A DNA stretch of 53,997 bases. Source: a virus. Its lineage: Duplodnaviria; Caudoviricetes. Positions within the stretch are counted from its first letter, which is position 1. Each line of letters opens with the position of its first letter. The DNA is taken from positions 1 to 53,997 of the IMG/VR virus record IMGVR_UViG_3300033153_006956; one strand, written 5' to 3'. Under the pieces are notes generated by a model, which made no database searches, had not been told where the DNA came from, and was given only the letters and a program-made list of their open reading frames with translations. Shown piece after piece: positions 2,001 to 52,871 of the stretch. A program made the position numbers and the translations under genes.

Positions 2001-2759
2001 TCATTTTGGCCTCGTTTCTTCCAGACCTAGTGGTATAGTTGACATTCTTTGAGTCTCGAATATAAAATCTCTCACTAATGGTATTTCATTGAGCCAGTTC
2101 GCCAATTGAGATACCATTAGACCTGCTGCAATACAGGCCCCATACATCGTCATTCTATCCGTACAACTGCCGTCAAATGCCTCTGTATCACTAAACAATG
2201 TTTGGCGATAGTAGTCTCTTGCGGCCCCGTCCGCCAGTGGAATAGTGATTATCCTCATCACTCTGGTCGTCATTCGGGCATCAATCCACAACCCCTGCAA
2301 ATTCTCTTTCGGGTATAATGGTGTTGTCGGAAAGGCTGTTTTGGTCTTTGCCTCCATTGTCACCTTCTGCCATATCGCTTCCCTTGCCTGCATCTTGTCA
2401 ACACAGCAGAAAAATACATCCGTAGCTAGAAGGTATTTAGGAAGCACCTTTTCAAATTCCCAGAAGAAACCACTAAAAGTGGTGTCCTGGGTGGTCAACT
2501 GGTGTTCAAGGATATGGGCTTTGTGGTGTCTAATATCCCCCCTATCCCACCCTTGAGTCCCTACATTCTTCAGCTCCACCTTGTCGGGGTCAGCTCCATA
2601 CAGCTTCTTGTGCCCCATTGCCGCCAGAAGAATAGCGACTTGCCGACCAACTGCCCCAAGACCAGCTATGCCGATTGTTAATCCCCGATACTTTTGCAGG
2701 GGTAAAGAATCCTTAAACCGCAAATCTGCTGTCTCTTTTTGTTTCTTATTTTGTGTCAT
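2001..2759 (-). CDS. ThiF/E1-like ubiquitin-like activating adenylyltransferase
   Basis: GLGAVG nucleotide-binding loop, DPDKVELKN..TQ, CCVD, DARM and a C-terminal GSCT Cys. Confidence 0.88.
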   Translation of the reverse strand: MTQNKKQKETADLRFKDSLPLQKYRGLTIGIAGLGAVGRQVAILLAAMGHKKLYGADPDKVELKNVGTQGWDRGDIRHHKAHILEHQLTTQDTTFSGFFWEFEKVLPKYLLATDVFFCCVDKMQAREAIWQKVTMEAKTKTAFPTTPLYPKENLQGLWIDARMTTRVMRIITIPLADGAARDYYRQTLFSDTEAFDGSCTDRMTMYGACIAAGLMVSQLANWLNEIPLVRDFIFETQRMSTIPLGLEETRPK

Positions 2760-2827
2760 TTTTCATCTCCTCATTCAAGTATCATTATCTCATTTGGTTT
2801 AAGCATAGATTCCCCTTAGAATTTTAC

Positions 2828-3853
2828 TCATTCCCACCCATATTTTAGCATTTCTAGTTCCTCGTCAGTATATTCCTCATCAAACCGGCTGTTCTTTAGT
2901 CCCATACTGGCGAGGCTGGCCTCCCTGTTGGTGTCTTTATTTGTTACCTGAAATATCTTACTTTTGTTACCTTGTTTGTTTTTATTCTTTCTGGTGTTGC
3001 CTTTTCTTCCGCTGTTTTTCTTCCCAGTAACTCTCACCTCTGCCGCACGGAGGGTAAGTGGGTCAAAGTCCTCGACAATCCGTCCCCATCTCAATATTTC
3101 CACCGGAGTGTAACCTTTCGTTCTGGCGATATTGTATTCTGTCAGTGTCAAGATGGTAGATGACCTTATCCATTCGCTTATTATATATTGTTTTATCCCC
3201 TGTTGGCCAGCAGATTGAACGAGTCTTTTCCGGTAAGACTCGCCACTACGGGGGTTTTGGCGGAATCCTATTTGTCTCCCCTCCATTACAGTAGGCGATT
3301 GTAGAGCTGGTGCGGGTCGTTTGATATTTTTTTTGTATTCTTTGTTCCACTCACTACTTTTTGCGTCCCAAATAGAGGACGTCCAGTCTACATACAGAGT
3401 CAAGGGCACGGCGGCGTGCATTTCTATTCCTGGTATCTTCAAGGCTGCATGGAGTTCAGCAAAATGTTCTTCGCCACCCCCAAGTATTATCATTATGGCA
3501 TAGTCCGTTCCCCTCAAAAGTTTATCTTCAAGAGTCGAAATATCTACAGAGCTGGGAGATGGTTTCCCAGCAGAAAATGGATGAGTGTGAATCCATACCC
3601 GCATACAGTTGGATGGGTCAACCCCCCGCCTGGCGTTCCTCTCCACATGTTTTGCCAGTGCCATATCTTCTAACTCTGTAGTTGCAGAGGTATTCTCTTG
3701 ACTAACGGTTTGGAAGTCAATAACAGTTAGCGGATTCTCTTTCTCGGTTATCCCAAATCCGCTAATCTCTAAATTACCGGCTTTCTTCATAAACCATCGT
3801 ATTTTGGCCCATGCTGTTGGTGAAATTGTGAGTCTTTTGTTTTCTTTTTTCAT
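2828..3853 (-). CDS. JAB/JAMM (Mov34/MPN) metallopeptidase with a long C-terminal extension
   Basis: N-terminal Glu in LEISGFG and a WIHTHP...PSSVD metal-binding motif. Confidence 0.85.
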   Translation of the reverse strand: MKKENKRLTISPTAWAKIRWFMKKAGNLEISGFGITEKENPLTVIDFQTVSQENTSATTELEDMALAKHVERNARRGVDPSNCMRVWIHTHPFSAGKPSPSSVDISTLEDKLLRGTDYAIMIILGGGEEHFAELHAALKIPGIEMHAAVPLTLYVDWTSSIWDAKSSEWNKEYKKNIKRPAPALQSPTVMEGRQIGFRQNPRSGESYRKRLVQSAGQQGIKQYIISEWIRSSTILTLTEYNIARTKGYTPVEILRWGRIVEDFDPLTLRAAEVRVTGKKNSGRKGNTRKNKNKQGNKSKIFQVTNKDTNREASLASMGLKNSRFDEEYTDEELEMLKYGWE

Positions 3854-4929
3854 TGGTCTTTCCTTTCATTTTTGGTATCCTTCATATCTTTCATATTCTC
3901 CACGTTCTCCACGTTCTCCACGTTCTCCATGCAGCGTGGACATTTATCCAGACAGTTAATGCAAAGTGTGCTTCCGCACTCAGAACATGCGGCAGAGTGC
4001 TCTTGACAAATTTGTCTCCCACAGGAACTACATGTTTTCTGGGAGTAAGAACAAAGAGAGCAAAGAACTCGTGCCTTTTTTTTCGTCTCCGCACAAATAT
4101 AACAGTGCATGGTAGTCCTCTTAGGGGCACATTTCTTACAGTATGTAGTACCACATGTATCACAAGCAACTATTTCCTCCCGTGGAACCCATCTCCTACA
4201 GTGCCCCTCGGAGCACCAACCGCCTTGTTGGTCAGTGAACGTCACCAGGGGGGAATAGGCTCCTCTCGCACTGTAATTTTTCAGTATAATAACGAATGTG
4301 TTATAGGCGGTAATAATATCCCAGTTCACGGTAGCATGAGCCATAAGCTGGGCTGATTGTCCCATACACAGGTTCCCCATAGAGGCGTGGGGATGGAGTC
4401 TACCGGAACTTCCCTTGTGTGGCACATCTGTTGCTTTCAACCTGAAATTTAGTCGGCCCCCCTCTTGTCTTTCCCCCATAACATGTACTACAAAATGGTT
4501 AAACGGCACTTTCAATCCTCTATGGGACAAGATTATAGTCGGCTGTGGGATATCAAGAGAAAACCACGAGTGAGCCGGATTATCAGAAAATTCCAATACC
4601 CATCCATCCGGTAAACTATTGAAAAATCCATCCAGGTTTCTTTTAGATAGATACCCCTTAAAGTGGTCTCCCACGACCATAGCTGCTCTTATCGCTAGAC
4701 GGTGGGCATCAACTAACTTATGGGCTGCCGATTCTAGCGCGGAGGCCATGCCAATCCAACTTTCACAACTTCTCGCTTCCGCGACTCCCTCTCTGATTAT
4801 CCTCAAACCTCGTCTCCTCGGGAGTGTACTGAGCTGTCGTATTTTAGCCCGAAATGCTTTCCCCGCCAGTTCTGGACTATGTTCACTGGTGAAGACAGTT
4901 TTTGTTTTCTCTTTTGTTCCCTTTACCAT
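3850..4929 (-). CDS. Prokaryotic E2-like protein fused to a multi-CxxC zinc-finger tail
   Basis: HPHASMGNLC resembles the E2 HPN...GxIC active site; about 10 Cys/His ligand pairs at the C-terminus; likely start 4929 after GGAG. Confidence 0.7.
   Translation of the reverse strand: MVKGTKEKTKTVFTSEHSPELAGKAFRAKIRQLSTLPRRRGLRIIREGVAEARSCESWIGMASALESAAHKLVDAHRLAIRAAMVVGDHFKGYLSKRNLDGFFNSLPDGWVLEFSDNPAHSWFSLDIPQPTIILSHRGLKVPFNHFVVHVMGERQEGGRLNFRLKATDVPHKGSSGRLHPHASMGNLCMGQSAQLMAHATVNWDIITAYNTFVIILKNYSARGAYSPLVTFTDQQGGWCSEGHCRRWVPREEIVACDTCGTTYCKKCAPKRTTMHCYICAETKKKARVLCSLCSYSQKTCSSCGRQICQEHSAACSECGSTLCINCLDKCPRCMENVENVENVENMKDMKDTKNERKDQ
3895..3930. repeat. 9-bp tandem repeat encoding ENV x3
   Basis: TTCTCCACG repeated. 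Confidence 0.8.
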
Positions 4930-5020
4930 TTTATCATCTCCAAAAAAGCTGGGGTTATTCACCTTTATGGGTCCTTTATGGTTTTGGAATAACCCCAGCA
5001 CCCAAGATTGATTACAGGAG

Positions 5021-5266
5021 CTATACTTCCTTTGCTCCCTTCATATTGCTGGGGACGATAATGACAAAGTCCCCATCCTTAAGTACGCATTTTGAAGGCT
5101 CGGGGACAGGCTCACCGTTGACAACAACCGACAAGTTCTTGGGGTTTTGAATCCCCAGTTCGCCGTAGAGAGCTTCCTGTGCTGTCATTCCCTTTGCAAT
5201 CTGGACTACCCTAGTTGACCCCGTGCCTTTATTACTGACCAGTGTGATTTTACCGTTCATACCCAT
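5021..5266 (-). CDS. ThiS/MoaD-like beta-grasp ubiquitin-like protein
   Basis: 81 aa; VVVNGE...LKDGDFVIIVP...KGA signature; AAAGGA RBS; first gene of the E2-JAB-E1 run. Confidence 0.85.
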   Translation of the reverse strand: MGMNGKITLVSNKGTGSTRVVQIAKGMTAQEALYGELGIQNPKNLSVVVNGEPVPEPSKCVLKDGDFVIIVPSNMKGAKEV

Positions 5267-5293
5267 TTTTCTGTTCCTTTCTTGTCTAACTAC

Positions 5294-5830: not shown

Positions 5831-5870
5831 GACTGTCCGGCTAGAAATGCACCCCTGCAAATAAAAACCG

Positions 5871-5975: not shown

Positions 5976-6339
5976 TTTTGAACTCCGGCGGTAAAATTAC
6001 ATTCGATGGGCAATCCGTGAACATTTTCCCTATTTTGCAGGGGGAAATTCCAGCTAACCCTGTCCCAATCGGTGTTACTAGAAATACCAACTCTGGGCGT
6101 GCTCGTGCGTAGGACAAAAAAGATTTCACATACTCGTGGATAACACAGAGAGGTAAAGTCTTTAAGTTTTTATCTTTTGTAGGGATAGCGAAGGACTGAC
6201 CTTGTAACCCATACCCCTGTCCATACACAGCCCCAAACTCTTCTGCCGCCTGCTTTGCCGCACCCGCACCGTGTCTACCCGCCTCATTCGACCCAAACAC
6301 AAAAATCTCGTTATCTTTTAGCTCTGTGATAAATTCCAT
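5965..6339 (-). CDS. A1S_2505-like phage protein (macrodomain-like)
   Basis: EIFVFGSNEAGRHGAGAA...VTPIGTGLAG motifs; likely start 6339. Confidence 0.75.
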   Translation of the reverse strand: MEFITELKDNEIFVFGSNEAGRHGAGAAKQAAEEFGAVYGQGYGLQGQSFAIPTKDKNLKTLPLCVIHEYVKSFLSYARARPELVFLVTPIGTGLAGISPCKIGKMFTDCPSNVILPPEFKNGI

Positions 6340-6818
6340 TATTCTACTTTTTGCTCCACTAAACATATTGTATCGTTGTGGTCTCCACCGTGACAAACCA
6401 GACAAACCGCTATCTTCTCGAACCCTCTACTCTTCGACATCCCCACGCTATCATACCCCAAACTGATAACCCTTGCCCTGTCATTCAGTATTCCTGGCAA
6501 AGCATTTTTAATTTTAGTGAGGTGTCCAATATACTTGCCGTTATACTTTTCTCTCGACTTGCGGATGTTGTATGGTGGGTCAAGAATCACGGTATCAAAT
6601 TGCAGGGGGGTGGTAGTAACAAACTCGAACGCATCACTGCACACATCGGGTCGGAACTCATTGGACAAATCAACCCTGAACTCATTTACACCAAGTCTGA
6701 CTTTACCCGCAAATAAATTGAGAGTCTTGCCCACGCACCAATGCTCAACCCACGTTTTGAGTTTCGGCTGCTCAAAAGTCCATCGTTTAGGGGGTTGTTG
6801 TAGATATGTTATTTCCAT
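6339..6818 (-). CDS. Small amino-methyltransferase-like protein
   Basis: LNLFAG (SAM-binding) and DPPY catalytic motif. Confidence 0.7.
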   Translation of the reverse strand: MEITYLQQPPKRWTFEQPKLKTWVEHWCVGKTLNLFAGKVRLGVNEFRVDLSNEFRPDVCSDAFEFVTTTPLQFDTVILDPPYNIRKSREKYNGKYIGHLTKIKNALPGILNDRARVISLGYDSVGMSKSRGFEKIAVCLVCHGGDHNDTICLVEQKVE

Positions 6819-8406: not shown

Positions 8407-8943
8407 TTAGCTCCTTATAAAATTTTTATTGTCCGGTTTACCCGACATAATAACTTTAATGCGATGCCAGGAGACAGGGTAATAATTGTTGTTATCCACA
8501 CCTATGTCATATTGTTTACTTTCCAGAGTAAGTTGCCCATGAGAATGACCAAAAAGTTGCCACGAATTATAATGACTACATTCCCATGTTCTCATCGCGT
8601 AATGGCACACAACTACTAAATTCCCATCAATTCGTTTACGCCAAATATATTTAGCACTTTTCGGTTGCCAGTGGTCGTGACTCCCAACAAGCAATATATG
8701 TGTCCCCTGCAATCGTCTGATATATTTTTTGTAAACATCTTCTTTCTTGTTAAGCCAGCAAAAGTCTCCAGCATGTATGGTTACATCTTGTGGTTGAACA
8801 ACACTATTAAAATTCCAGATAAGTTGTTCATCCATTTGCTCGACACTGGAAAAAGGCCTATTGCAATATTTAATTATTTTTTCATGCCCATAATGCTCAT
8901 CTGCTGTGAACCAATACATCATCTTATCCCTTTTTTCAACCAC
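8407..8943 (-). CDS. Calcineurin-like metallophosphoesterase
   Basis: ADEH, AGDF, GSHD and GHSH motifs. Confidence 0.88.
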   Translation of the reverse strand: MVEKRDKMMYWFTADEHYGHEKIIKYCNRPFSSVEQMDEQLIWNFNSVVQPQDVTIHAGDFCWLNKKEDVYKKYIRRLQGTHILLVGSHDHWQPKSAKYIWRKRIDGNLVVVCHYAMRTWECSHYNSWQLFGHSHGQLTLESKQYDIGVDNNNYYPVSWHRIKVIMSGKPDNKNFIRS

Positions 8944-9350: not shown

Positions 9351-9852
9351 TTACTTTATCCTTCAAAATTTCGTGCAATAATCCTTGGGCATTGAAAATT
9401 ACCCCGCAAATAGAGTCTTCGATTGTTACGGGGCCGTGATTATCAGATGCTGGAAATCCATCAAACAACAACCATGTAGACAAGAAATGTCTTGCTAGCC
9501 CATCGAGATATACATCTTGTGGTATGCCTTTTTTCCAGTTGTCCCAATCACGTAAACTCCCGTCAGATTGAACACGATGTTTCCCAATATATTCAACATA
9601 ATGTCTTAACACTGATGGAGACAACGCTTTCACATAACTAGGTTTATTGGCTAAGGTATCACGAGTAGCCCCCCCTGCAAACGTCCTCATCTTTTTAGAT
9701 ATATCAATAGCATCCTCATTGGCATTTCCTCTTACTCCCATCTGTTCTATGTCCATATTCTTTGTATTCTCAATCTTATGTTCTTGCACCAATCTGTGCA
9801 TTTCTTCATTTGTCATTCGTCTTTCCTTTCTCCAGCATTTCCATACTTGCAA
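9337..9852 (-). CDS. dATP/dGTP diphosphohydrolase-like (DUF5664) protein
   Basis: RTFAGGATRD...KP...DNWKKGIP...RH pattern; true start probably the internal MTNEE. Confidence 0.7.
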   Translation of the reverse strand: MQVWKCWRKERRMTNEEMHRLVQEHKIENTKNMDIEQMGVRGNANEDAIDISKKMRTFAGGATRDTLANKPSYVKALSPSVLRHYVEYIGKHRVQSDGSLRDWDNWKKGIPQDVYLDGLARHFLSTWLLFDGFPASDNHGPVTIEDSICGVIFNAQGLLHEILKDKVNGKT

Positions 9853-12610: not shown

Positions 12611-13535
12611 TCTCTTTTCTTGATTTACTCACAGCCTCATCATATGCCTTTTTGAGAACATCCCAACCACCAATCATTGGAACTTCTAGACTTGCTACCA
12701 AATTGGGGACACCACGTTGTTTGCCCTCCATTGCTTTTCTCTCCGTTGGTTTGGTATAGAGGTGATACCTGGTTTTCACTTCTTCTTTAGCCCCTCTTAT
12801 AGTTCTTCCTTTTATAACCACATCAGTTTTTTCTTTGCGGGTAGTACTGTTTATAGTCAAGTGGAGTTCTGCCTTTCGTACTATGGGGCCAACATATCCC
12901 TTTGAAAGTATAGGCCTAATCTTAGTGGATGCCTTAAACGTAATAGGGTCTGTTTCTTCAACATAGGTTAAATGCCCAATAACCGCCCAGGTGTAGCCGA
13001 CACTCTCAATTTCGCTGAGGATTCTTTTAATCCTCCCCTGCAAAAGAGAATGCCCATGTCCCTTCTGGCCATACTCCCCTATATCCTCATAAGTTTTAGC
13101 CGCCGAGCTTTTTTCATCCAGCAAGTGTGTTGATTCAAGTTCAACCAGCCCGTCATGGGTGTCAAAAATAACGCGGCCCCACCTACGTTTACCTCCTTTA
13201 GCATCAGCTATCAACTTATCGAGAATGGCTCGGTGAATTTCATAAGCAGTTTTCCCTGTTTTTTTCGCCGCCTCATAGATATTAAAGTAGCCGCTTTTCC
13301 GCCCAGGAACACCATTAGCACCACGCTCATAATCTATTGTTACGGCGTTGGGGATACTGCCAGCAAAGGTGCTCTTCCCTTCTCCGGACAAACCAGTGAT
13401 ATACAGTCGTGCTTCTTCTAATGTGCAGGGGTTATATCCAGTTGTTAACCCAAGTGCCACATAGTCCGCCGGCAGTGGTATATTTGCAGGGGTTGTGGAT
13501 ACAACTACGTTACTTTTTGCATCTACATTTACCAT
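12597..13535 (-). CDS. Sak4-like AAA_24 ATPase (recombinase)
   Basis: GLSGEGKST Walker A, IDYERG, IFDT Walker B, IGH; close to the nuclease and SSB-like genes. Confidence 0.75.
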   Translation of the reverse strand: MVNVDAKSNVVVSTTPANIPLPADYVALGLTTGYNPCTLEEARLYITGLSGEGKSTFAGSIPNAVTIDYERGANGVPGRKSGYFNIYEAAKKTGKTAYEIHRAILDKLIADAKGGKRRWGRVIFDTHDGLVELESTHLLDEKSSAAKTYEDIGEYGQKGHGHSLLQGRIKRILSEIESVGYTWAVIGHLTYVEETDPITFKASTKIRPILSKGYVGPIVRKAELHLTINSTTRKEKTDVVIKGRTIRGAKEEVKTRYHLYTKPTERKAMEGKQRGVPNLVASLEVPMIGGWDVLKKAYDEAVSKSRKENGNG

Positions 13536-17314: not shown

Positions 17315-19923
17315 TTTATTGTTCTTTCATACTCAATGGGAATACTTCTTCCCAATTCTTGTTCTAAAACCTTCATAAGTGGTGGGTTTGTCAAGTGTTT
17401 TTTCGCTATCTCGTCCACTTTTTCTACCTCGTCATAAGGGGTATCAATGGTAATAGAATCATACTTATTGGTACAGATAACCGACCTCATTCTGTTACGT
17501 CTCAGTTCCTGCAAGATAACAAACTGTGAACTCAATGGTATCTGCCCGCTTCCCAGTGTCTGTATCGGGAAGTTACAAATCTCGTTCATAGCACCCATCG
17601 CATTTGACATCCCCCTCCCGAATGTTCGGCTCCATCCTGTCGGTAATTCCAAATAGCCCTGCTTGGCCACTGTCTCAATTAACTCGTCCTGCCACGCCTT
17701 AAATACAGGGTGCTCTGCATACCAAGTATCAATATGTGCCTTCGCCTGCTCGAATGGTATCTCCAGTCCACAATCAGAACGTGCTGTCATCTGGTACGCC
17801 TTTGGCCCACCACGATAAATAATCAAAAAGTTCAAAGCCTTCGATGACCTGTACTCCTTCGTGTCTTTCACCTCAGATATTGGGAGAGTCAGCAAATGTG
17901 GGTACAGTGAGTAGGTCGTGTTTAAGTGGATACTCTGTCCTGGATTTTGGTACACATCCATCAGCACCGGACATCCAGACAGGAAGGCAGCCATCCGCAA
18001 TTCAATCTGGCTGAAGTCATAAGTTCTAAGAGTGCCAGCGTGGAATCTTGATTTCAAGCACGCCTTCACTGGCCGTGGGAAAGTTTGTGCTGGCGGCTTA
18101 CGTGGTGTTATCCTCCCCTGTATAGTCCCCCCCTTTTTCTCTTCCCCATTCGTACCACCCTTCTCGAACACTGTGGGAACCGGATACCATACAGGCCAAA
18201 ACCAGCCGGTTTTACGGTCTCGATAAATAATGCCCTCTCGTGGATGTGTGAGCATTTTGTTGGTATATGTATTTCTTAAATGTGAATATTCATCGTACAC
18301 TTTCATTTGCTCTGCTACTTCCCGCAACTCCCCCTCCGGCAGATACTGTAAAACCAAATTCACGTTAGCCTTGTTAGCACTTATTTCTTTTCTGACTTTA
18401 GTTCGCTCGACTCTTTTATCCCCCTGCAAATTACATTCCTCAATGGCGGCGGTCATAAATTCTACTTTTGATTTCCTCGACCCCTCCCCTCCGAAGACAA
18501 CCCCACTTTCTTCCCCTTTTTCTAATGCCCCGATACAAATTTTTTCATACTCATCATTGACAGCCTGCAATTTGGGGATGTCTATTCGTTCCCCAGCCTT
18601 CTCCATCCCCACTACATTCCAGATAATATCATTTCTCATCTTGGCACATACGCTGCCGAGTTTGGCGGAATCAGGACCATATCTGATTTTGATTCTCTCG
18701 TCTATTTCTTCCCCAAGTACAAGAGTAGCAGCGGCATCAAGACAGTTGTAGTACAGAAGGTCTGGGTCTCTGGCCGTCCCCGCATTTCCCTTTGAGCCAG
18801 TTACATTCAACCCCTGATAGTTAGCTATACCATACAGGAGAGACAATTCTTTTAAGCCCTTCTCTGGTTGACTCTCGTCCAGCAGAAAAGTTTTTATCAG
18901 CGTGTCGTCCACCGTCAAATGATTGGGGTCAAGTAGTCTGTCCAGTAGTGGGTCATTCATAATCAGGTACAGAAGGTCATACTTAAAATTTTGCCCCTGC
19001 AAAACACTCTTCGCACCTATAGCCCTTCTCACCCAGCTTCTGATTAGTTTCTGGTGTATAGGGTCGGCGAATATATAAACCGGAGTTCGTATCTTGCAGG
19101 GGCTGGAACTAAAATGAGTATCCCGATAAGCAAATGACACGGTAACTACTTGCTTCCCATAAGGCACTCCATCTACGTATTTGGATTTTGCAGGGGTAAA
19201 AACACTCTGATTAAACCCCTTCAGTATCCCGTAGGTTTCAATATCACAGGTCAACAGTGACGGCATTTTGTCTGGTACTTCCGCACCCAGTTCTGGTACA
19301 ATCTGTAGTTTATTTGGTACAAACTCCCCAGTCAGATACCGTCTCAACAGCATAAAGTGAGCCTGGATAGTACCCACCCTCTCTGGTTTTCTTCCAGGAT
19401 ACAGGATGGCTGGGTGATTAGTAAAGAAGAGAGTCGGCATCCTTGACAGTATTTCCATCGACATTGTTCCCTCTGTCAATCCCTGTAGCTTCAGCCCCTC
19501 CCCCAGACTCGACACCCCAGCTACCGACTTAGCGGCGTCAGCACCGCAGGCCAGCACCACTACCTCGTCATAGTTATCCAGCAGCTTCTGGATGTCGTAT
19601 AGTAGATGTGGCCGGCAGGCATTTATCTGTGTTTTGGTCGGTTTCTCTTTGATGGGCACACGACACCGGAGAGCATTGGACAAATAGATATCCACCAGCT
19701 CGGGTAGCTTGATAGCATTGATAAACTTCCCAAGAATATCACCACTCCATCCTATCCACGATTTACCGGCCTGGTCTTCGTGATAGCCAGGAGCCATTCC
19801 AACGACCAGCAGAGCACGGTTGTGTCCTCTAACCTCAAACTCCCGTGTGGGAATTCCAGGATTTATCGCCTCTTTACACAGTTGACAATCTTCACAATCT
19901 TGATGGCTCGGAAATTCAATCAT
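17311..19923 (-). CDS. polA: DNA polymerase family A with an N-terminal uracil-DNA glycosylase (family 4-like) domain and a 3'-5' exonuclease
   Basis: CxxC, GMAPG..ED..G...IG.SG, NALRC and HPA (UDG); DIET, NFKYD and YNCLD (exo); DFSQIELR, KALNF...Y and YDS (pol motifs A/B/C). Confidence 0.92.
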   Translation of the reverse strand: MIEFPSHQDCEDCQLCKEAINPGIPTREFEVRGHNRALLVVGMAPGYHEDQAGKSWIGWSGDILGKFINAIKLPELVDIYLSNALRCRVPIKEKPTKTQINACRPHLLYDIQKLLDNYDEVVVLACGADAAKSVAGVSSLGEGLKLQGLTEGTMSMEILSRMPTLFFTNHPAILYPGRKPERVGTIQAHFMLLRRYLTGEFVPNKLQIVPELGAEVPDKMPSLLTCDIETYGILKGFNQSVFTPAKSKYVDGVPYGKQVVTVSFAYRDTHFSSSPCKIRTPVYIFADPIHQKLIRSWVRRAIGAKSVLQGQNFKYDLLYLIMNDPLLDRLLDPNHLTVDDTLIKTFLLDESQPEKGLKELSLLYGIANYQGLNVTGSKGNAGTARDPDLLYYNCLDAAATLVLGEEIDERIKIRYGPDSAKLGSVCAKMRNDIIWNVVGMEKAGERIDIPKLQAVNDEYEKICIGALEKGEESGVVFGGEGSRKSKVEFMTAAIEECNLQGDKRVERTKVRKEISANKANVNLVLQYLPEGELREVAEQMKVYDEYSHLRNTYTNKMLTHPREGIIYRDRKTGWFWPVWYPVPTVFEKGGTNGEEKKGGTIQGRITPRKPPAQTFPRPVKACLKSRFHAGTLRTYDFSQIELRMAAFLSGCPVLMDVYQNPGQSIHLNTTYSLYPHLLTLPISEVKDTKEYRSSKALNFLIIYRGGPKAYQMTARSDCGLEIPFEQAKAHIDTWYAEHPVFKAWQDELIETVAKQGYLELPTGWSRTFGRGMSNAMGAMNEICNFPIQTLGSGQIPLSSQFVILQELRRNRMRSVICTNKYDSITIDTPYDEVEKVDEIAKKHLTNPPLMKVLEQELGRSIPIEYERTIK

Positions 19924-31535: not shown

Positions 31536-31801
31536 TTATTTTCCTTCAACCAACGCCATAAAAATTTAGCAGCATCAATAGTTGCAGGGGTTCCATCCTT
31601 AAAGTGCATACACGAATCGCAAAAGCCAGAAGCCTCCAGTGATTCGTGGAACGCTGAGTGGAAAGCCCTAAAATCATTTCCTGTCAAAATTGCCATTTCC
31701 AGCAATCCTCCGGCTTTTTCAATAACATCGGTGGCTCCATCAATAGCATCCACAAAATCTATTTTGTACTTTGTCCCATTAAAAGAGTGAGTATGTATCA
31801 T
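31523..31801 (-). CDS. Hypothetical protein with an HExxE zincin-like motif
   Basis: AFHESLEA. Confidence 0.5.
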   Translation of the reverse strand: MIHTHSFNGTKYKIDFVDAIDGATDVIEKAGGLLEMAILTGNDFRAFHSAFHESLEASGFCDSCMHFKDGTPATIDAAKFLWRWLKENKWQK

Positions 31802-31803: not shown

Positions 31804-32712
31804 TTAATACCTCCGATTGTCGAAGTTGTCTCCATGCAGATGAGTTGCGTCCTGTACGTTGCTGTAATAGGCAGAGAGACGAACATGGCGAATTGCTTCC
31901 GCGTATGCTTTTTCGATATTAGCAGCACGACCAAGACCCTCAATCTGGGCGATAGTCTTTGCGGCGTGTAGAGCGACCACCATATCTAATCCCTTGTGGA
32001 TTGCAGGGGCTATTTCGTAGATAATCTCGCCATCATCAGTAGTTGGAACTGTGGTGAGTGCCGGAGTTAATGTAGCTGCTCGTGTGGCATTGTTGTAGGC
32101 TGATATAGTTCTTTCCTGCTGGTAGTTTCCTGTTACCGTAGTCCCTATCACATTCACAATCCTGAATGTACATCCGACATAAGCATCGTGATGAGTATCC
32201 AAAGTACCAACAGTCGGGGTAGCCCCAAAAGTTGCGATAGTCCCACCAGCATTTAGAGTACATTCCCCGTGATGAAGTCTGGCGATGCCGGCTGGTGTGT
32301 ATTCTACTGTTAATTCAGCGCCGAGACTTAAAAATCCGGTACTCTGGAATCTAATTACATTTCCTTCAACCCAGAGAAATCTACCAAGTGGGTTATACTG
32401 ACCACGAGAGGAATAAAATATTCTCCCCCCGCCAGAAGTCCCTTCGTAGATGGCTTCTATCGACCCTACCGTATAAGGCAGGATATACTCGGTTGTTCCA
32501 GAGGCAAGAGTAATAGTAACACGGCCAACAGCAGGTGTTAAAGCATTGCGATTTTTTTCACCAAGCACCAAAATATACGAAAGTTCAATTTGCTTAATGA
32601 GGTCAGCATCGCTGTATTTTGCTTTAACTGTTGGCTCATCAATATGTTTTCTAATATCCGCCAATGCACGGGTTAAGAATGAATCAGCGTAATCTGTTGC
32701 CGTTATTGCCAT
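31804..32712 (-). CDS. Head-tail adaptor / tail tubular protein A-like
   Basis: IR..IDEP...YSDADL and TLASGTTEYILP pattern; position. Confidence 0.6.
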   Translation of the reverse strand: MAITATDYADSFLTRALADIRKHIDEPTVKAKYSDADLIKQIELSYILVLGEKNRNALTPAVGRVTITLASGTTEYILPYTVGSIEAIYEGTSGGGRIFYSSRGQYNPLGRFLWVEGNVIRFQSTGFLSLGAELTVEYTPAGIARLHHGECTLNAGGTIATFGATPTVGTLDTHHDAYVGCTFRIVNVIGTTVTGNYQQERTISAYNNATRAATLTPALTTVPTTDDGEIIYEIAPAIHKGLDMVVALHAAKTIAQIEGLGRAANIEKAYAEAIRHVRLSAYYSNVQDATHLHGDNFDNRRY

Positions 32713-36825: not shown

Positions 36826-37203
36826 TTACCCCTGCAAAATCCTTTGTCTATTTTCTTGATTCTCCCCATCCTCGTTTATTCTGTTTGTGGTGTAGTCTCT
36901 GGCGTTCTGCTGGATTGCCCTGGCCATTTTAGTCGCCGAGATGGGGGCAAACAAACGCTGGCGGAATTCTTCTGCTTTCTTCCTGTCAAATTCCGCCAGT
37001 GAATGGCCGATATGCAGGAAGTCGGTGAAGATGCCAAACGCCCTATCTTTAGCCCACCGCCCAATTACAAAGGTGTCGGCTATCCTATGATGGTAGAGGA
37101 AAAAACTGTCGGCGTCTTTTGCAGGGGGGACTGTTTTAATCCACCTACTGAGTTCTCCACCCAGAATTTCGTGCTGAGCTCTATCATACATGCAAGGTAT
37201 CAT
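36826..37203 (-). CDS. Hypothetical virion-region protein
   Basis: ORF track; GGAG RBS. Confidence 0.6.
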   Translation of the reverse strand: MIPCMYDRAQHEILGGELSRWIKTVPPAKDADSFFLYHHRIADTFVIGRWAKDRAFGIFTDFLHIGHSLAEFDRKKAEEFRQRLFAPISATKMARAIQQNARDYTTNRINEDGENQENRQRILQG

Positions 37204-40652: not shown

Positions 40653-40692
40653 AGGGCGAAGGGGCAGCATTTTCCAGCTACCCCTGCACCTT
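40653..40692 (-). terminator. GC-rich hairpin downstream of the capsid gene
   Basis: GGGGTAGC/GCTGCCCC stem. Confidence 0.4.
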
Positions 40693-42400: not shown

Positions 42401-43402
42401 CTATTTTACTTTGTTGGCAAGACTCTGAACCATCTTTTGTCCGAGTCTTTTCACCACGTTGTCCTCATAGTCTGCCTCAGTTGATGGTATCCTCTCAATT
42501 TTGTCATTGGATTGGACTTCAGCTGGGAGACCTCCAGTCGGCCCAAGGGCTGCCAACACATTCGATATGGCAGATTGCTTGGACGACTTTGATGGGATAC
42601 CGTATTTTTTCAGCTCCGACCTCACAGTCTGTATAGAGTTCTGAATCATTCCGGCCCCAAATTTCTCCTGCGTATATGGAGAAGCCAAAATCTTTCCACG
42701 AACATCTCGATGTACCATCGCTAGAATAACTTCACGCTTATCCCCCCGATTCTCTTCGGGGGTTTCACTTATTATTTTACCAAAGAATTCATCTTTGTCA
42801 ACACTTTCTTTGCACATTCTCAAAATTTCTTTTTCAGCCTCAGCAATCTGTGCCTGCTTGGCCTGCTCAAGAATATCCTTAGTTTCATCGTCAAGTTGGT
42901 CTTTCCCGATTTTCTTGTCAGAATCCACAGTTTTGTCCTTTTTGCTGCCCTGTTTATCCAGCTCATCGTTGAACATTTTAACCATCTCCTCCTGGTCGAC
43001 TCCAAGAACCCCTGCAAGTTTCCTAATATCCGAAGTATCCACGTTATCCGACTTCATAACCTTCTCAAAAGCCTCTTTAATTTCTATTCCCGAAGCTGCC
43101 CCCTTCCGCATCTCGGCAGCTTCCCTCATCAATTTATCAGCACCAGCAGATTTACTGGCATATTCCTTCAATTCATCCAATGTCAGCAACTTTGTTTCAC
43201 CACCAATCTTGACCTCATAATTCTCAGGCTCCTTCTTGCCGCCCTCATTATCACCTTTGTCACCTTTGTTACCTTTGTCGCCGGCATCACCTCCATCGCC
43301 GGCATTGCCGTCTTCACCACCGCCACCTGTACCTTCGCCATCGTTGTCGAAACATCTTTGGATACCACCAAGCATCATCCATTTTTTCCATAAATCAAAC
43401 AT
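42401..43402 (-). CDS. Capsid scaffolding protein
   Basis: Acidic Gly-rich N-terminus, YEVKIGGE..LTLDEL...SK.AGAD motif; between portal and capsid. Confidence 0.7.
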   Translation of the reverse strand: MFDLWKKWMMLGGIQRCFDNDGEGTGGGGEDGNAGDGGDAGDKGNKGDKGDNEGGKKEPENYEVKIGGETKLLTLDELKEYASKSAGADKLMREAAEMRKGAASGIEIKEAFEKVMKSDNVDTSDIRKLAGVLGVDQEEMVKMFNDELDKQGSKKDKTVDSDKKIGKDQLDDETKDILEQAKQAQIAEAEKEILRMCKESVDKDEFFGKIISETPEENRGDKREVILAMVHRDVRGKILASPYTQEKFGAGMIQNSIQTVRSELKKYGIPSKSSKQSAISNVLAALGPTGGLPAEVQSNDKIERIPSTEADYEDNVVKRLGQKMVQSLANKVK

Positions 43403-43452
43403 TTTGTGCTCCTTTCCTCCCATACAGTATTTGCAGGGGGTAGAACTTAGAG

Positions 43453-45514: not shown

Positions 45515-45796
45515 TTATCCAAACTGTGTGATAGTCGCGGCAGGCTCGATTTCCCTTTTCTCTTCGGGTTGTGGACTGACGGATTTATCCTTAACCCCTG
45601 CACATAAATTCCTCAACACCCCCGCCGTCTTGAAATCTTTATCCACCATCGCCTGATAGAGCTTATACTCTCTGGTGGTCTCCTGTAAAAGTCGATGGAG
45701 TGTGGCGACCTGGCACTGTAGAGCTATAATACAACTTACCAGTAATATAAACATTGCTATAATGATGGATGCAATAACAGCTACGTTAATATTCAT
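45515..45796 (-). CDS. Small N-terminal TM protein
   Basis: ORF track; AAGGAG RBS. Confidence 0.6.
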   Translation of the reverse strand: MNINVAVIASIIIAMFILLVSCIIALQCQVATLHRLLQETTREYKLYQAMVDKDFKTAGVLRNLCAGVKDKSVSPQPEEKREIEPAATITQFG

Positions 45797-46354: not shown

Positions 46355-49300
46355 TTACCTCGTTATAATATTAGGCTTATTTCTTGTTTTATATTTACCC
46401 TCATTTTGGGGGGAATAGAAATTAGCAAGAAGATTCCGCATTTCTTCAGCAGTTAAATCTGACGGATTGACTCCACTCAACAATGGCAGACCAGGGGCTA
46501 TTGGTTCACCAGATTTTATTTGTTGGGAGAGGGTTTTTTTTGCAGGGGCTTTGGCCGACTCACGCCCACGAGTATGAACAAGGAAGATGCTCATAGCAAC
46601 AGTATCAATAGCATCATCATATCGAAGAAGGGCTAGGTCTCTTGTAAAATTTTCAGTTTGTTCATAGAGGGCGGAGAAAGGCCACTCATTAACACGATGG
46701 TGTGGATACTTGATTTTACCGGCGTTGAATCTCCATTCCAAACCAGCAATGCGGTCACCCTTTGACATTCTGGCCGGATAGCGAATGGGGATAACGCGGG
46801 GAACCCAAATGCTAGATTCCCCCCCGCTAGCTCCTAGTTTTCTGGTAAACTCATTTACATACTCTCCCATTGAATCAACGAGATTCCCCTGTGTCCCACA
46901 GGCCTCAATACCGATAGCCCTCACCAGCCACTTTTGTCCCATCTCATATATTTTACGGTAGAAGACCGAATCTTTTACCTTGCCCAACCATAAGTCTAGT
47001 ACCCACAAACAGTTGTTGTGGTCAAAGCCGAGGATGGCTATGGAGCGATAATCGTTCTTTGCCTCAAGCCCACTGGCTGTATCCACTAGAGCCACCCTAT
47101 ACATAGACCCGAAAACTTTGTGGATTTGTCCCTGCTTTTTTTCTGTCTCGAAATCGGGAGCTTCTCCTGGATTACCCACACGTTTTCGTTCATTCCAGAA
47201 TACCTCTTTGGTGGAGGAAAGAAGATGAGCTTGCTCCTGTGGTTCCATCGTCCGATAGTCGGGGATGATGTATTCGTTGAAGTCTGGGTCAATTTGGAGA
47301 AGTTTGGTTTCGTCCGTGAGTGGGCGATTCAAATACTCACTGGAATACGCTGAAGTTCCAATCTCCATCTCCCGTGCACGCAAGAACTCAAGCGGCCAAG
47401 CTGCGTCCCAGAGAGCTTTGGTGCGGGTGGTGTCCTCAGCAACATAAACACGCCGCATCCATACCCCAAATCGAGGGTCATCACCCTCGCAGGCCCGATA
47501 CAGGAGACACCGGCGGTTTATCATAGTCCCAATCCAAAAAATTGCCGAGCCTTTGGCAAGCATTGGGATAATCTGTCGAAATAGAATCTGCTCATACTTC
47601 TCAGTGATAAGATATTGGGAATTAGAGGAACCACCAGTTGCCTCGGAGTCAAATTCAGGGTCGTCAAGTATAAAAAGTCGTGGCCGAGCACCACGTTTGC
47701 GGCCCATTACACTGAATCCCTCTATAACTGAACCATTCGCCAGATGGAGATGGTGGTGATTCCAGATGGCAGTTCCCCTTAGCGGTTTTATTACCCCGAA
47801 ATCAGCGGTTATTTGGGGATTCTCGGTAAGTTCTATCATCAATCTGTCAAACCGCCCCTCTATAAGGCGGTCTGTGGACATACCCATCGCAATACTGAAG
47901 TATGGGCGGGTGAGGGCCAACAGCAATGGGGCTTCCACACCTATCACAGTAGAGTTATGAACAAATATTCCCTCACAAAGAAAATTGGCGTTATCTTCCA
48001 CTTGAATATCATAAGCATCATCAGCTCCCCCATCTTCTATTGAGATAACTGGGTCCCAGTAAATATCCGATGTGGCGAGATTCATCAAGTCTTGACGGCC
48101 AGTTATTTCTGCAACTTTTTTTAGTTTTAGTCGGGTTATTCGATAATGATTATCAATTCGTATACCATATTTCTGCCGGAATTTCCACATCGAGAGAGGA
48201 AGTCTTTGTTTTTCTTCAAATGGAAAATAGATATTGTCAGTCGCATCGTGTCCAATTTCAATATTGTCAAGCAAAATCATTTTTCGCTTGATGCGAAAAC
48301 CTACCAAATCTCGAAACTTCAATCGTGCCTCTGCTGAAGAAATATGAAGTCCCCATGAATCAAACTCTTTATCATATTTAGAGTATTTCGCTTTCCTATA
48401 TGTATATCGGGAACGTATCCCCAACCTGAGAAGAGCCAGTTGTACATCTCGAATTAAATCTTTATTGGCCAGGGTAAGTGAGATTGACCCATTTTGTTTG
48501 CTGACTGTACCATCTGTATCAAAAAGGCCGCGAAGAAAAGCTGCAAGACATTCATCAGATGCTTCCCAAACAGCCTGTGGGATACGTTTTTCTGTTGATT
48601 TATGGCCAAATAATCCATGTTTTTTGATAAAATCTATTCCCCCATTGGTTATACTCCATCTTCCTTTTGCCTTGGTTTTACGTAACTGCCAATCTGGATG
48701 ATGCTTTACAGCCTTCAAGACAGTTTGAATAATCTCTTTATCGAATGTCGTAATCTGGCAACAACTGGTGGTGCTGCCGTCACCTGTTAATATCCCTAAC
48801 AACTCCGAGTCTAATATAGTCAATTTTCCTCTAGCCTGTGTGGGTAATGATGTTCGAGGAGTTGCGATTAAATCACCAATTTTTAAATCCCCCCCTGCTA
48901 TCCAAGTGTTATTAGTTAAGATACGGTGTTCTTTTGAGCAGAATACTCTATGGCCTTGTTTGGTTGTAATTTTGAGAAAAGATTTTTTACCAGAATACTC
49001 TACAGCTATTACTTTCTTCCAGGAAAGTTTAAGAGAAGAATCAAGGCTTAAAATCTTTTCTCCTTTTTTGATATTTTTTAATTTTTTGTATCCCGATAAA
49101 GTGGAGATTAAAGAGTCCCATCGCCCACATTTGGCGAAACCTCGTGGGGCAGCTTGTGCATTACGGCTCCACTGCCCCAAATCCCGTATGAGCTGGTAAT
49201 GAAAGTCAGGACTTTTCTTAAACCCGCTCTGATAGAAGGCTTCTCCTCTTGGGCGGAGATAGAGATTACGGAATAACACCCACGCATTTACCAAGTCTTC

Positions 49301-49634: not shown

Positions 49635-49643
49635 CTTCTTTTT

Positions 49644-51430: not shown

Positions 51431-51440
51431 CTTTCTACTT

Positions 51441-51470
51441 TATATACGTCCCCCCTGCAAATTTGTTCGG
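51441..51470 (-). promoter_or_regulatory. Promoter CCGAACAAA-...-CGTATATA upstream of the packaging genes
   Basis: Member of the conserved promoter family; its spacer contains a CCCCTGCA motif. Confidence 0.55.
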
Positions 51471-51960: not shown

Positions 51961-51974
51961 TTTTAGTTCCTCAA

Positions 51975-52045
51975 GGTGACTGGTGTAACTCGAATCCACA
52001 CTCTCAGCATCACAGGCTGATGTGCTGCCATTACACTACAGCCAT
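51975..52045 (-). tRNA. tRNA-His(GTG), non-canonical or degenerate
   Basis: TCAGC-CTGTGAT-GCTGA anticodon arm and TTCGA loop; lacks G-1, with 1:72 and T-stem mismatches. Confidence 0.65.
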
Positions 52046-52047
52046 AA

Positions 52048-52120
52048 TGGAGATAGTAGGAGTCGAACCTACGACAAACTGCTTGCAAAACAGTTGCTCT
52101 CCCGACTGAGCTATATCCCC
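52048..52120 (-). tRNA. tRNA-Ala(TGC)
   Basis: Full cloverleaf GGGGATA...TATCTCCA with G3:U70. Confidence 0.92.
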
Positions 52121-52123
52121 AAA

Positions 52124-52196
52124 TAGCGGGAGTGAGATTTGAACTCACGATTTCTGGCGTATGAGACCAGCGTCTTAACCACTCGACCATCCCGCA
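52124..52196 (-). tRNA. tRNA-Met(CAT), initiator-like acceptor stem
   Basis: Cloverleaf, CTCATAC anticodon loop, unpaired 1:72. Confidence 0.85.
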
Positions 52197-52203
52197 GCTA
52201 TTT

Positions 52204-52233
52204 ATTATACGCTGGGAGCGGCGGTTTGTTCAG
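52204..52233 (-). promoter_or_regulatory. Promoter CTGAACAAA-...-GCGTATAAT driving the tRNA cluster
   Basis: -10 ends 7 nt before tRNA-Met; member of the conserved promoter family. Confidence 0.75.
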
Positions 52234-52871
52234 TAAAAACCCCTGCAAAACGGAATTTTTTTGAAAAATTTTTGTATCCTTATATATAGCGTTTTTAGCG
52301 ATTTCGGGTTTTTTGGCGATTTTGTTAACTGGGTGGAGGTTGGTTTACGAGTCGGTAGGTCGGAAATCGGGAATTTTCACTTGGAAATTAAAACGAGTGT
52401 GGTCTTTGGCCTATATTTTTCGCTCCTCATGGGGGGCCGATGGGCAGTCAAGGGGGGAATTTTATTGTTGACGTTGTGGATTGTGGACGTTTTGTATAGG
52501 ATAGAATTGTTCAGGCAGTCTCGATTTTCGCGGAACGCATATACCGGAAAGCCCCCAGGCCGGCTGAAAAAAGATTAAAGTATTGTTCGCTGCCAAGACG
52601 ACACATTTGTTATGGTTTGAGTAACGAAACGAATCGGGTTTTATTAGGGATTAGAATTATGGAAACACCAAAAAACTATCAAAATGAAGTGAGATCCTCT
52701 AGCACATTCGATTATCTCTGGATTTTAACCATCCTAACAGAGCTTTGCATTGAGCATAAAATCACCATCGCCGAATATGACGCCCTGTACAATAACCTGC
52801 TCGATAATACTACGCCCTGCTAATATCTAACTGCCACGCCCGCAATCCCTTAGACACTATTTGCAGGGGCC

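What the first reader, a model, noticed from the sequence alone, without database searches (positions are those of the whole stretch)
2292..52869. Genome-wide periodic inverted clusters of the octamer CCCCTGCA / TGCAGGGG
Seen (manual scan, may be incomplete): CCCCTGCA at 2292, 5852, 8704, 9672, 13035, 18421, 18994, 23090, 26959, 31346, 36829, 40681, 43009, 45595, 51452, 52240, and TGCAGGGG at 2695, 6036, 6601, 11012, 13424, 13485, 16120, 19095, 19189, 23496, 27156, 31583, 32002, 37120, 43432, 46541, 52862. That is 33 copies against about 1.6 expected for a random 8-mer on both strands, usually extended to CCCCTGCAA(A). The arrangement is ordered: all 12 CCCCTGCA-to-TGCAGGGG transitions span 0.1-1.35 kb, while all 12 reverse transitions (including across the circular join) span 2.0-4.9 kb. 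Inside genes the motif is read in several frames (LQG, FAG, PLQ, PA, PC), so selection acts on DNA, not protein. Inference: an evenly spaced, orientation-aware cis-signal. Candidates are Chi-like sites protecting against host helicase-nucleases in both directions, priming sites (no primase gene is evident), programmed nick sites as in T5 or phage tf, protein-bound loop anchors for packaging or ejection, or methylation marks.
Basis: partly seen in the sequence, partly recalled or inferred. Interest (0 to 1): 0.88.

Follow-up and report, generated by a model that had tools for sequence, protein, structure and literature searches.

The report
Strand-alternating signal word across a phage family
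This uncultured phage and its whole family carry 17 to 64 exact copies of one short DNA word per complete genome, set on alternating strands at even distances.

Summary
CCCCTGCA occurs 33 times (16 +, 17 -), against about 2 in dinucleotide shuffles and about 3 in coding DNA after synonymous-codon shuffling. All 12 '+ then -' gaps are 101-1340 bp. All 11 inner '- then +' gaps are 2.0-4.9 kb.

New here: the feature is family-wide. Thirteen related uncultured phage records (three incomplete; sheath-like protein 33-62% identical) each carry their own exact word. These are CCTCCGCAG, CCCCTGCAG, CCTCTGCAG, CCTCAGCAG, GCCCCGCAG and, in distant kin, CTGGRACCAC. Each word has 9-64 copies on both strands, each strand's sites are often more evenly spaced than chance, and '+ then -' pairs lie closer than '- then +' pairs in all 14 genomes. 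The word tracks the phage tree. Site positions turn over while the layout stays.

Best reading (about 0.38): Chi-like stop signals for a host RecBCD/AddAB-type helicase-nuclease. A facing pair is the smallest unit that saves a linear piece attacked from both ends. Weak points: no host was found, none of 804 sampled bacterial genomes from four phyla is enriched, and the phages carry their own recombination genes.

Main rival (about 0.30): sites read by a phage protein from the packaging or structural module. The scan's notes hold one loosely similar case (e1-5942881), with another word and layout.

The parts
2292..2299 (+). CCCCTGCA site, continues AA; inside ORF 2001-2759
2695..2702 (-). site, continues AA; same ORF; faces 2292 (403 bp)
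5852..5859 (+). site, continues AA; between ORFs
6036..6043 (-). site, continues AA; faces 5852 (184 bp)
6601..6608 (-). site, continues AT
8704..8711 (+). site, continues AT
9672..9679 (+). site, continues AA
11012..11019 (-). site, continues AA; codons 6-8 of ORF 9862-11034; faces 9672 (1340 bp)
13035..13042 (+). site, continues AA; in the AAA_24 (Sak4-like) gene
13424..13431 (-). site, continues CA; faces 13035 (389 bp)
13485..13492 (-). site, continues AA
16120..16127 (-). site, continues AA; between ORFs
18421..18428 (+). site, continues AA; in the DNA polymerase gene
18994..19001 (+). site, continues AA; in the DNA polymerase gene
19095..19102 (-). site, continues AG; faces 18994 (101 bp)
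19189..19196 (-). site, continues AA
23090..23097 (+). site, continues AA; in the 1047-aa ORF
23496..23503 (-). site, continues AA; faces 23090 (406 bp)
26959..26966 (+). site, continues TC; sheath-like gene; same aligned place carries the local word in G1, G2, G266, G420 and G421
27156..27163 (-). site, continues AA; faces 26959 (197 bp)
31346..31353 (+). site, continues AA; aligned with a G1 site
31583..31590 (-). site, continues AC; faces 31346 (237 bp)
32002..32009 (-). site, continues AT
36829..36836 (+). site, continues AA; last codons of ORF 36826-37203
37120..37127 (-). site, continues AA; faces 36829 (291 bp)
40681..40688 (+). site, continues CC; between ORFs
43009..43016 (+). site, continues AG
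43432..43439 (-). site, continues AA; between ORFs; faces 43009 (423 bp)
45595..45602 (+). site, continues CA
46541..46548 (-). site, continues AA; end of the terminase gene; faces 45595 (946 bp)
51452..51459 (+). site, continues AA; between ORFs
52240..52247 (+). site, continues AA; between ORFs
52862..52869 (-). site, continues AA; between ORFs; faces 52240 (622 bp)

Best explanation
The word is a Chi-like control signal for a host helicase-nuclease of the RecBCD/AddAB class, which enters phage DNA at free ends. The proposed reading strand is the G-rich one (5'-TTGCAGGGG-3' here, 5'-CTGCGGAGG-3' in most kin). It would be read on the 3'-ended strand from its 3' side, as for E. coli Chi. A '+' site (C-rich word on top) would then stop an enzyme moving rightwards, and a '-' site one moving leftwards. 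A linear molecule attacked from both ends keeps a duplex core only if it holds a '+' to the left of a '-'. For a permuted, terminally redundant genome, the two ends keep overlapping homology for circularisation under the same condition. The working unit is therefore a facing pair, and selection should spread tight facing pairs evenly along the genome. Shown: the enrichment, the exactness of the word, its independence from reading frame, the alternation, the even spacing within each strand, the pair order in 14 genomes, and the turnover of site positions. Inferred: that a host enzyme reads the word, which strand is read, and that the packaged DNA is permuted.
For: (1) The word is among the two or three commonest 8-mers in each of 13 of the 14 genomes, at one per 0.8-3.2 kb (about one per 4 kb in the incomplete G419). 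Known Chi-rich phages are similar: LLS has 23 Chi at one per 1.86 kb and P1 has 50 at one per 1.9 kb, with Chi the commonest octamer in both; MD8 has 32 (PMC12315714, sections 6 and 15 read).
(2) The mean shortest stretch from a random left end that holds a '+' then a '-' is shorter than with shuffled strand labels. Of the nine genomes, seven give p<=0.006, G265 gives p=0.022 and G5 gives p=0.059. In W it is 2854 bp against 5730 bp. All five further genomes give p<=0.041. In 14 of 14 genomes it is also shorter than for '- then +'.
(3) Pooled over nine genomes, the nearest opposite-strand site lies on the facing side for 245 of 364 sites. Under 100 bp there are 13 facing pairs and 0 back-to-back pairs.
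(4) This pair order is the protective one only if the G-rich, CTG-starting strand is read as E. coli Chi is (geometry as stated in the legend of Fig. 3 of PMC12315714). That strand resembles the proteobacterial candidates GCTGGTGG, GCTGCTGG and GCTGGAGG (bioRxiv 2020.08.13.249359, Results read).
(5) Site positions turn over while the layout persists. Only 11 of 181 W-site-by-genome comparisons coincide (shifted control 1.0), and 4 of 18 with the nearest relative G5. So the density and order of sites matter, not their exact locations.
(7) A perfect TTGACA-17-TATAAT promoter on the gene strand and hairpin-plus-T-run terminators in kin point to a bacterial host.
Against: No host is known and no enriched host genome was found. 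Exact CCTCCGCAG is at background level in 151 Desulfobacterota, 201 genomes of the phylum of a Clostridia MAG and 201 Pseudomonadota. CCYCYGCAR is at background level in 251 Planctomycetota. That is 804 genomes in four samples. The family carries its own recombination set (AAA_24/Sak4-like, PD-(D/E)XK and ERCC4), whereas published Chi-rich phages lack one (abstract). Published Chi-rich phages show one dominant orientation (20 of 23 and 32 of 32), not a balance. The same 9-mer is kept in one clade whose members range from 38 to 55% G+C, which suits a phage-borne reader better than changing hosts. The distant kin use 10-12-letter words, longer than any known Chi. Covering 90% of permutations would need a terminal redundancy of 3.9-9.6 kb, about 8-17% of the genome by my arithmetic, which is large. 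One relative was binned in a 'Candidatus Bathyarchaeota' MAG, and archaea lack RecBCD/AddAB (recalled).
Confidence: 0.38

Rival explanations
1. The word is read by a phage-encoded protein from the packaging or structural module, such as the poorly conserved small proteins upstream of the terminase gene or the terminase itself. It would mark places for strand-specific nicking, packaging-linked cutting or DNA anchoring. The word and its reader would drift together along the phage tree.
For: The words map cleanly onto clades of the portal-like tree. One clade keeps CCTCCGCAG across 38-55% G+C. The only genes W shares with the complete, layout-bearing G418 are structural or packaging genes, including terminase and ORF 50424-50990. 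No enriched bacterial genome was found among 804 sampled. The very regular spacing in G417 (CV 0.22) suggests a mechanical ruler.
Against: No sequence-specific DNA-binding domain was found in any gene shared by all members (Pfam and PHROGs). Changing a reader together with 30-60 sites is a hard evolutionary step. No known packaging or nicking system uses balanced, facing pairs. Nothing in this model predicts which pair order should win.
Confidence: 0.3
2. The sites are strand-specific start signals for DNA synthesis, either primase recognition sites or paired leading-strand starts forming many small two-way origins. The CTG-starting strand would be the template.
For: Even spacing within each strand, at 2-3.5 kb, is what site-bound lagging-strand priming would need. 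The G-rich strand starts with CTG in all words but W's, and CTG is the E. coli DnaG start triplet (recalled). W shows no primase or helicase in the roughly 50 ORFs scanned.
Against: Known primases read three letters, not 8-12 (recalled). No primase lies in the genes shared by all members, and replication modules differ between members that keep the layout: G1 has an AAA_25 helicase-like gene that W lacks, and G418 shares none of W's replication genes. Okazaki priming gives no reason for facing pairs.
Confidence: 0.1
3. The word is the target of a DNA methyltransferase or a restriction-type system and serves as a methylation-dependent self mark.
For: The words end in GCAG, like the CAG-ending targets of Type III, BREX and Type IIG adenine methylases (recalled). 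W carries an MT-A70 methylase and G1 an N6_N4 methylase. W alone ends its word in GCAA and has 0 CTGCAG sites against 11.5 expected, so restriction pressure does shape the word.
Against: No methylase is shared by all members: the MT-A70 gene is found in 3 of 8 main-clade relatives. Targets of restriction systems are usually avoided, not enriched 17-70 fold. This model does not predict the layout.
Confidence: 0.07
4. The word is a DNA-uptake-type or other hyper-abundant repeat of the host, copied passively into the phage.
For: The density (about one per kb), the exactness, the dialects, and in-place change of the word at conserved positions all recall DUS/USS dialects (recalled). Some tight pairs form terminator hairpins (G2 32214-32260).
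Against: These look like lytic-type myophages; no integrase was seen in the ORFs scanned. No word-dense genome was found. Uptake signals have no reason to alternate strands or to sit at even distances.
Confidence: 0.04

Closest known systems
Chi sites in Chi-rich phages (E. coli phages LLS and P1, Pseudomonas phage MD8)
   Same: An exact 8-mer is the commonest octamer of the genome, at about one per 1-2 kb, in any reading frame. It is selected at the DNA level and its action depends on orientation (PMC12315714, abstract and sections 6 and 15).
   Different: Those phages lack recombination genes, have one dominant orientation, and cluster the sites near one end. Their word is known to be the host's Chi. 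In this family both strands are balanced, sites alternate in facing pairs, recombination genes are present, and no host or host enrichment is known.
DNA uptake sequences and their dialects (Neisseriaceae DUS, Pasteurellaceae USS); recalled, not tested by any search
   Same: Exact 9-12-mers at about one per kb. Lineage-specific dialects differ at one or two letters. The word changes in place at conserved positions. Inverted pairs sometimes serve as terminators.
   Different: Those are features of competent bacterial chromosomes, with no strand alternation or even spacing. This family consists of phage genomes, and no dense host genome was found.
Programmed single-strand interruptions of T5, phiKMV and tf phages; recalled
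   Same: A short consensus word recurs along a phage genome, and its positions are partly conserved.
   Different: As I recall it, those nicks lie on one strand only, are fewer (4-14 major ones), and are not in facing pairs. Whether nicks exist in this family could not be tested.
Stoperators of Cluster A mycobacteriophages and the 8-bp early-region word of freshwater phages (scan note e1-5942881)
   Same: Dozens of copies of one asymmetric short word occur across a phage genome.
   Different: As I recall them, stoperators sit between genes, follow the direction of transcription, and go with a repressor gene. In this family 26 of 33 sites are inside genes. The strands are balanced (16:17) although all genes run one way.

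Membership tests
Chi (RecBCD/AddAB hotspot) sites | The word is over-represented in the host chromosome | tested here: inconclusive
   The host is unknown. None of 804 genomes sampled from four phyla is enriched, and none of the 120 loci from the pair scan is word-dense. The sample is under 1% of the species held.
Chi (RecBCD/AddAB hotspot) sites | Action depends on orientation; the word is read on the 3'-ended strand from its 3' side | not testable with these tools
   Only indirect evidence: the pair order is the protective one if the G-rich strand is read this way.
Chi (RecBCD/AddAB hotspot) sites | The host encodes a RecBCD or AddAB enzyme | not testable with these tools
   No host was identified. 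A sigma-70-type promoter and intrinsic terminators suggest a bacterium. One relative was binned with an archaeal MAG.
Chi-rich phages (as in PMC12315714) | The phage lacks its own recombination module and RecBCD inhibitor | tested here: not met
   AAA_24 (Sak4-like), PD-(D/E)XK and ERCC4 genes are present and shared by 7-8 of 8 main-clade relatives. The inhibitor status is unknown.
Chi-rich phages (as in PMC12315714) | The word is the commonest octamer, at about one per 2 kb | tested here: met
   W has 33 copies in 54 kb, tied with a homopolymer run as the commonest 8-mer. Among complete kin the density is one per 0.8-3.2 kb.
DNA uptake sequences | Thousands of copies in a competent host genome | tested here: inconclusive
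   No dense genome was found in the same samples as above.
T5/tf/phiKMV-type nick sites | Sites confined to one strand (recalled definition) | tested here: not met
   16 '+' and 17 '-' in W. Strands are roughly balanced in all 14 genomes.
T5/tf/phiKMV-type nick sites | Physical nicks in virion DNA | not testable with these tools
   No sequencing run could be listed.
Stoperator-type repressor sites | Orientation follows transcription, position is intergenic, and a repressor gene is present (recalled definition) | tested here: not met
   All genes lie on one strand, yet the sites are 16:17. 26 of 33 sites are inside ORFs. No repressor was found.
Primase recognition sites | A primase is encoded, or a host primase has this specificity | tested here: not met
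   No primase domain was found in the W ORFs scanned or in the genes shared by all members.

The most novel reading that the evidence does not exclude
A widespread family of uncultured sediment and peat phages carries a genome-wide punctuation code of a kind not yet described. An exact 8-12-letter word is laid on alternating strands as evenly spread facing pairs. It is read by a phage-borne factor, or by a host machine other than RecBCD/AddAB, and it evolves as lineage-specific dialects together with its reader. Even on the Chi reading, the rule that a facing pair is the protective unit would be a new design principle, and the words would be the first Chi sequences for uncultured hosts.
Probability: 0.3. 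Interest if true: 0.9.

Novelty: new variant of a known kind. Interest (0 to 1): 0.72.

Why it matters
At least 200 relatives of the sheath-like protein exist in public metagenomes, so this layout is a common and so far unremarked trait of environmental phages. If the word is a Chi-type signal, it gives the recombination hotspot sequence of hosts that nobody has grown. That offers a sequence-only way to link these phages to hosts, and it explains how permuted linear DNA survives attack from both ends. In both cases the dialects form a natural series for studying how a reader and dozens of its sites change together.

Tried and rejected
Ribosome-binding role: the G-rich strand contains GGAGG-like letters. 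However, only 3 of 16 (W), 5 of 22 (G1) and 8 of 34 (G2) sense G-rich sites precede the start of an ORF of 60 aa or more within 2-15 nt. Rejected as the general function.

Terminator hairpins: a few tight pairs look like terminators (G2 32214-32260, G1 17353-17385), but most tight pairs lie inside conserved coding DNA. W has no pair 50-80 bp apart.

Protein-level cause: rejected by frame diversity and codon shuffles.

Close cultured relatives: megablast of 13 kb against phage records found nothing. tblastn of the terminase ORF gave only matches under 28% identity, on the intein part, to helicases of SPO1-like phages.

Host search:
None has more than 5 copies per 8 kb.
- The four phylum samples showed no enrichment.
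- The Atlas gave only a weak Planctomycetota hint for a JAB-like ORF.
- The listing of cluster members gave no names for 10 NCBI-sourced sheath relatives.
- For public sequencing runs, none was listed.

Reader search:
- Pfam and PHROGs found no sequence-specific DNA binder in the shared genes.
- The 1047-aa ORF has no PDB sequence match, and its sequence looks like a tape-measure or internal protein (my reading).
- The G1 terminase has no PDB sequence match.

Literature:
- Exact-string search for four 9-mers found two unrelated papers.
- A five-term search for such a layout found no paper.
- A Chi-in-phages search found 30 papers, of which 12 were listed. I read the abstracts and named sections of two of them.
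- Their supplementary tables (Table S3 of PMC12315714; Datasets S3-S5 of the preprint) were not seen, and they may list further Chi candidates.

Physical ends: the 'direct terminal repeats' of five kin are 114-127 nt, the size of assembler overlaps. They show circular assembly, not real ends.

Not used: structure prediction, complex prediction, read laying and the metagenome scan.

Full report
OBSERVATION. The window is a whole IMG/VR virus record of 53,997 bp, classed 'linear', with CheckV completeness 100. It has 44% G+C, and essentially all long ORFs lie on the minus strand. Dinucleotide shuffles give 2.03 on average and at most 7. The word is sharply defined. All 33 CCCTGCA are preceded by C, 29 continue with A and 23 with AA, and only two one-letter variants of the 9-mer reach three copies. 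Twenty-six sites lie in ORFs in all three frames and seven lie between ORFs. In 200 synonymous-codon shuffles that left the seven non-coding copies in place, the mean was 9.9 and the maximum 15. Coding needs therefore do not make the word.

LAYOUT. The 12 '+ then -' gaps are 101-1340 bp. The 11 inner '- then +' gaps are 2023-4911 bp. In 5000 shuffles of the strand labels, none reached the observed ratio of 8.7; a second run of 4000 gave p=0.0008. Strand switches are in excess (23, p about 0.013). Within each strand the sites are more evenly spaced than random placements: '+' CV 0.47, p=0.0008; '-' CV 0.61, p=0.02. Pairs do not sit at a fixed place relative to genes.

THE SAME LAYOUT WITH OTHER WORDS IN THE WHOLE FAMILY. 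Relatives found through the terminase and sheath-like proteins are syntenic with W at about 42% mean protein identity. They almost lack CCCCTGCA: G1, G2 and G3 have 3 copies each. Each relative carries its own exact word:
- CCTCCGCA(G): 44 copies in G1, 64 in G2, 47 in G265, 34 in G266, 46 in G421, and 17 in the 17-kb fragment G006.
- GCCCCTGCAGA: 32 copies of the CCCCTGCA core in G5.
- CCTCTGCA(G): 26 copies in G262.
- CCTCAGCAGA: 52 copies in G263 and 57 in G420.
- GCCCCGCAG: 32 copies in G264.
- More distant kin (sheath-like protein 33-44% identical): CCTGGGACCACG, 19 copies in G417; CTGGGACCACC, 17 in G418; TCTGGAACCACG, 9 in G419.

Of 23 loci from the second sheath scan, 20 show a word of the first type among their top k-mers and two show the second type. 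One, a partial view of G419, showed none until the whole record was read. The near words differ only at letters 1, 3, 5 and 9 of xCxCxGCAR. W is the only one ending in A, and W has no CTGCAG (PstI-type) site against 11.5 expected, whereas G5 has 45. The odd last letter of W's word therefore looks like avoidance of a restriction site.

LAYOUT STATISTICS ACROSS 14 GENOMES. In the nine main-clade genomes first tested, facing gaps are shorter than back-to-back gaps in eight. The fold difference is 2.1-8.7, with p<0.05 in six; G266 shows none. Alternation is in excess in six. One statistic captures both features: the mean shortest stretch, from a random left end, that holds a '+' followed by a '-'. 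Compared with shuffled labels, seven of the nine genomes give p<=0.006, G265 gives p=0.022 and G5 gives p=0.059. All five further genomes give p<=0.041. In all 14 genomes it is also below the value for '- then +'. For the three distant genomes, the word's direction was fixed from G417's pattern, so only G418 and G419 are independent there. Pooled over the nine, the nearest opposite-strand site lies on the facing side for 245 of 364 sites. Under 100 bp there are 13 facing pairs and no back-to-back pair. G5 is the weakest case and shows instead a strand polarity along the map.

EVOLUTION. On a portal-like protein tree the words form clean clades: W with G5; G263 with G420, next to G262; and G1, G2, G265, G266 and G421 together (13 rows, G417 lacking the gene). 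The CCTCCGCAG clade spans 38-55% G+C. Between G1 and G2 (55% mean protein identity), 17 of 31 G1 sites in shared genes have a G2 site at the aligned place and orientation; two of these are counted twice through overlapping ORFs. For W, only 11 of 181 site-by-genome comparisons coincide, against 1.0 for shifted controls. Four of 18 coincide with its nearest relative, G5. One site in the sheath-like gene (26959+) carries the local word in five genomes of two other dialects. Site positions therefore turn over and words change in place, while number, alternation and spacing are kept.

GENES. Pfam and PHROGs identify the following in W:
- a terminase with an intein, and an endonuclease VII-like protein;
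- a family A polymerase with a UDG-like N-terminal domain;
- HNH, ERCC4-like, PD-(D/E)XK and AAA_24 (Sak4-like) proteins;
- an MT-A70 methylase.

No primase, helicase or integrase was found among the roughly 50 ORFs scanned. Genes shared by all eight main-clade relatives are structural genes plus the polymerase, ERCC4 and PD-(D/E)XK genes.

MECHANISM. I favour a Chi-like signal for a host helicase-nuclease. Published Chi-rich phages show the same gross picture: Chi is the commonest octamer, at one per about 1.9 kb. P1 needs RecA and RecBCD to circularise through its terminal repeats (introductory text printed with the outline). The new element is geometric. If the G-rich, CTG-starting strand is read as E. 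coli Chi is read (top-strand Chi is active for an enzyme coming from the right), then '+' sites stop rightward enzymes and '-' sites stop leftward ones. A molecule attacked from both ends keeps a duplex core only if a '+' lies to the left of a '-'. The two ends of a permuted, redundant genome keep overlapping homology under the same condition. That makes the facing pair the working unit. It predicts alternation, tight facing pairs, even spread, and the absence of tight back-to-back pairs, all of which are seen. The predicted reading strand also resembles proteobacterial Chi candidates. That resemblance is a lead, not a test.

AGAINST THIS READING. No host is known. Among 804 sampled bacterial genomes of four phyla, none is enriched. 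The whole-collection pair scan found mostly scattered single inverted pairs plus a recurrent roughly 39-nt repeat in two Clostridia MAGs, and no locus was dense in the word. The phages carry their own recombination genes, unlike published Chi-rich phages. Orientation is balanced rather than one-sided. The same 9-mer persists across a wide G+C range. The distant kin use 10-12 letters. Covering 90% of permutations would need a redundancy of about 8-17% of the genome. One relative was binned with an archaeal MAG, although a perfect sigma-70 consensus promoter and intrinsic terminators point to bacteria. I therefore give the Chi-like reading 0.38. A phage-borne reader in the packaging or structural module gets 0.30, priming sites 0.10, a methylation-linked mark 0.07, and a host uptake-type repeat 0.04. 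The remainder is left open.

NOVELTY. The exact words appear in no held paper in this sense. A search for such a layout found nothing. I am not aware of a description of strand-alternating, facing-pair, evenly spread words in phage genomes. As a member of the Chi kind it fails one tested feature (lack of a recombination module), and the key feature (host enrichment) is open. I therefore file it as working like Chi, not as proven Chi: a new variant of a known kind, with a real chance of being something new.

Noticed in passing
window 46355-49408 (-): The terminase large-subunit ORF is 1017 aa, against 614-615 aa in G1 and G2. It holds an intein: Intein_splicing at residues 108-485 and a LAGLIDADG_3 homing endonuclease at 286-370. 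The insert lies in the longest site-free gap (46541-51452).
   Followed up: partly
window, whole: There is no CTGCAG (PstI-type) site, against 11.5 +/- 3.4 expected, while relative G5 has 45. W's word ends in GCAA where all near dialects end in GCAG. This suggests a PstI-like restriction system in W's host.
   Followed up: partly
window 17038-17010 (-): A perfect sigma-70 consensus TTGACA-17-TATAAT (12 of 12) lies on the gene strand, inside the HNH ORF and upstream of the ERCC4 gene. It hints at a bacterial host that is not Bacteroidota.
   Followed up: no
window 1105-1489: A tandem array (period 12/24/30, about 31 copies of a 12-nt unit) fills ORF 1104-1505. It would encode a Gly-rich repeat protein next to a DUF6948 gene.
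   Followed up: no
window 17311-19923 (-): The family A DNA polymerase carries an N-terminal UDG-superfamily domain (residues 37-174).
   Followed up: no
The Atlas places ORF 2828-3853 near JAB-domain clusters.
   Followed up: partly
G5 (L144-L146): Unlike the other genomes, G5 shows strand polarity of its word. Ten of the first 14 sites are '-' and 14 of the last 18 are '+', as if set by a replication or packaging direction.
   Followed up: no
L053, L068, L077, L078, L091, L092, L094, L097 and others (two Clostridia MAGs): A recurrent inverted repeat of about 39 nt, whose arms happen to be CCCCTGCAAA / TTTGCAGGGG, occurs on many contigs of two MAGs. It is probably an unrelated small repeat family.
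   Followed up: no
G1 (L013 10061-11329, 12870-13931; L014 4640-6067): G1 carries an N6_N4 methylase, an AAA_25 (DnaB/RepA-like) ATPase and an AAA_23 (Rad50/SbcC-like) ATPase, all of which W lacks. Replication modules are swapped within the family.
   Followed up: no
window 51975-52196 (-): A cluster of three tRNA genes (His-GTG, Ala-TGC, Met-CAT) lies in the non-coding right end, between word sites 51452 and 52240.
   Followed up: no
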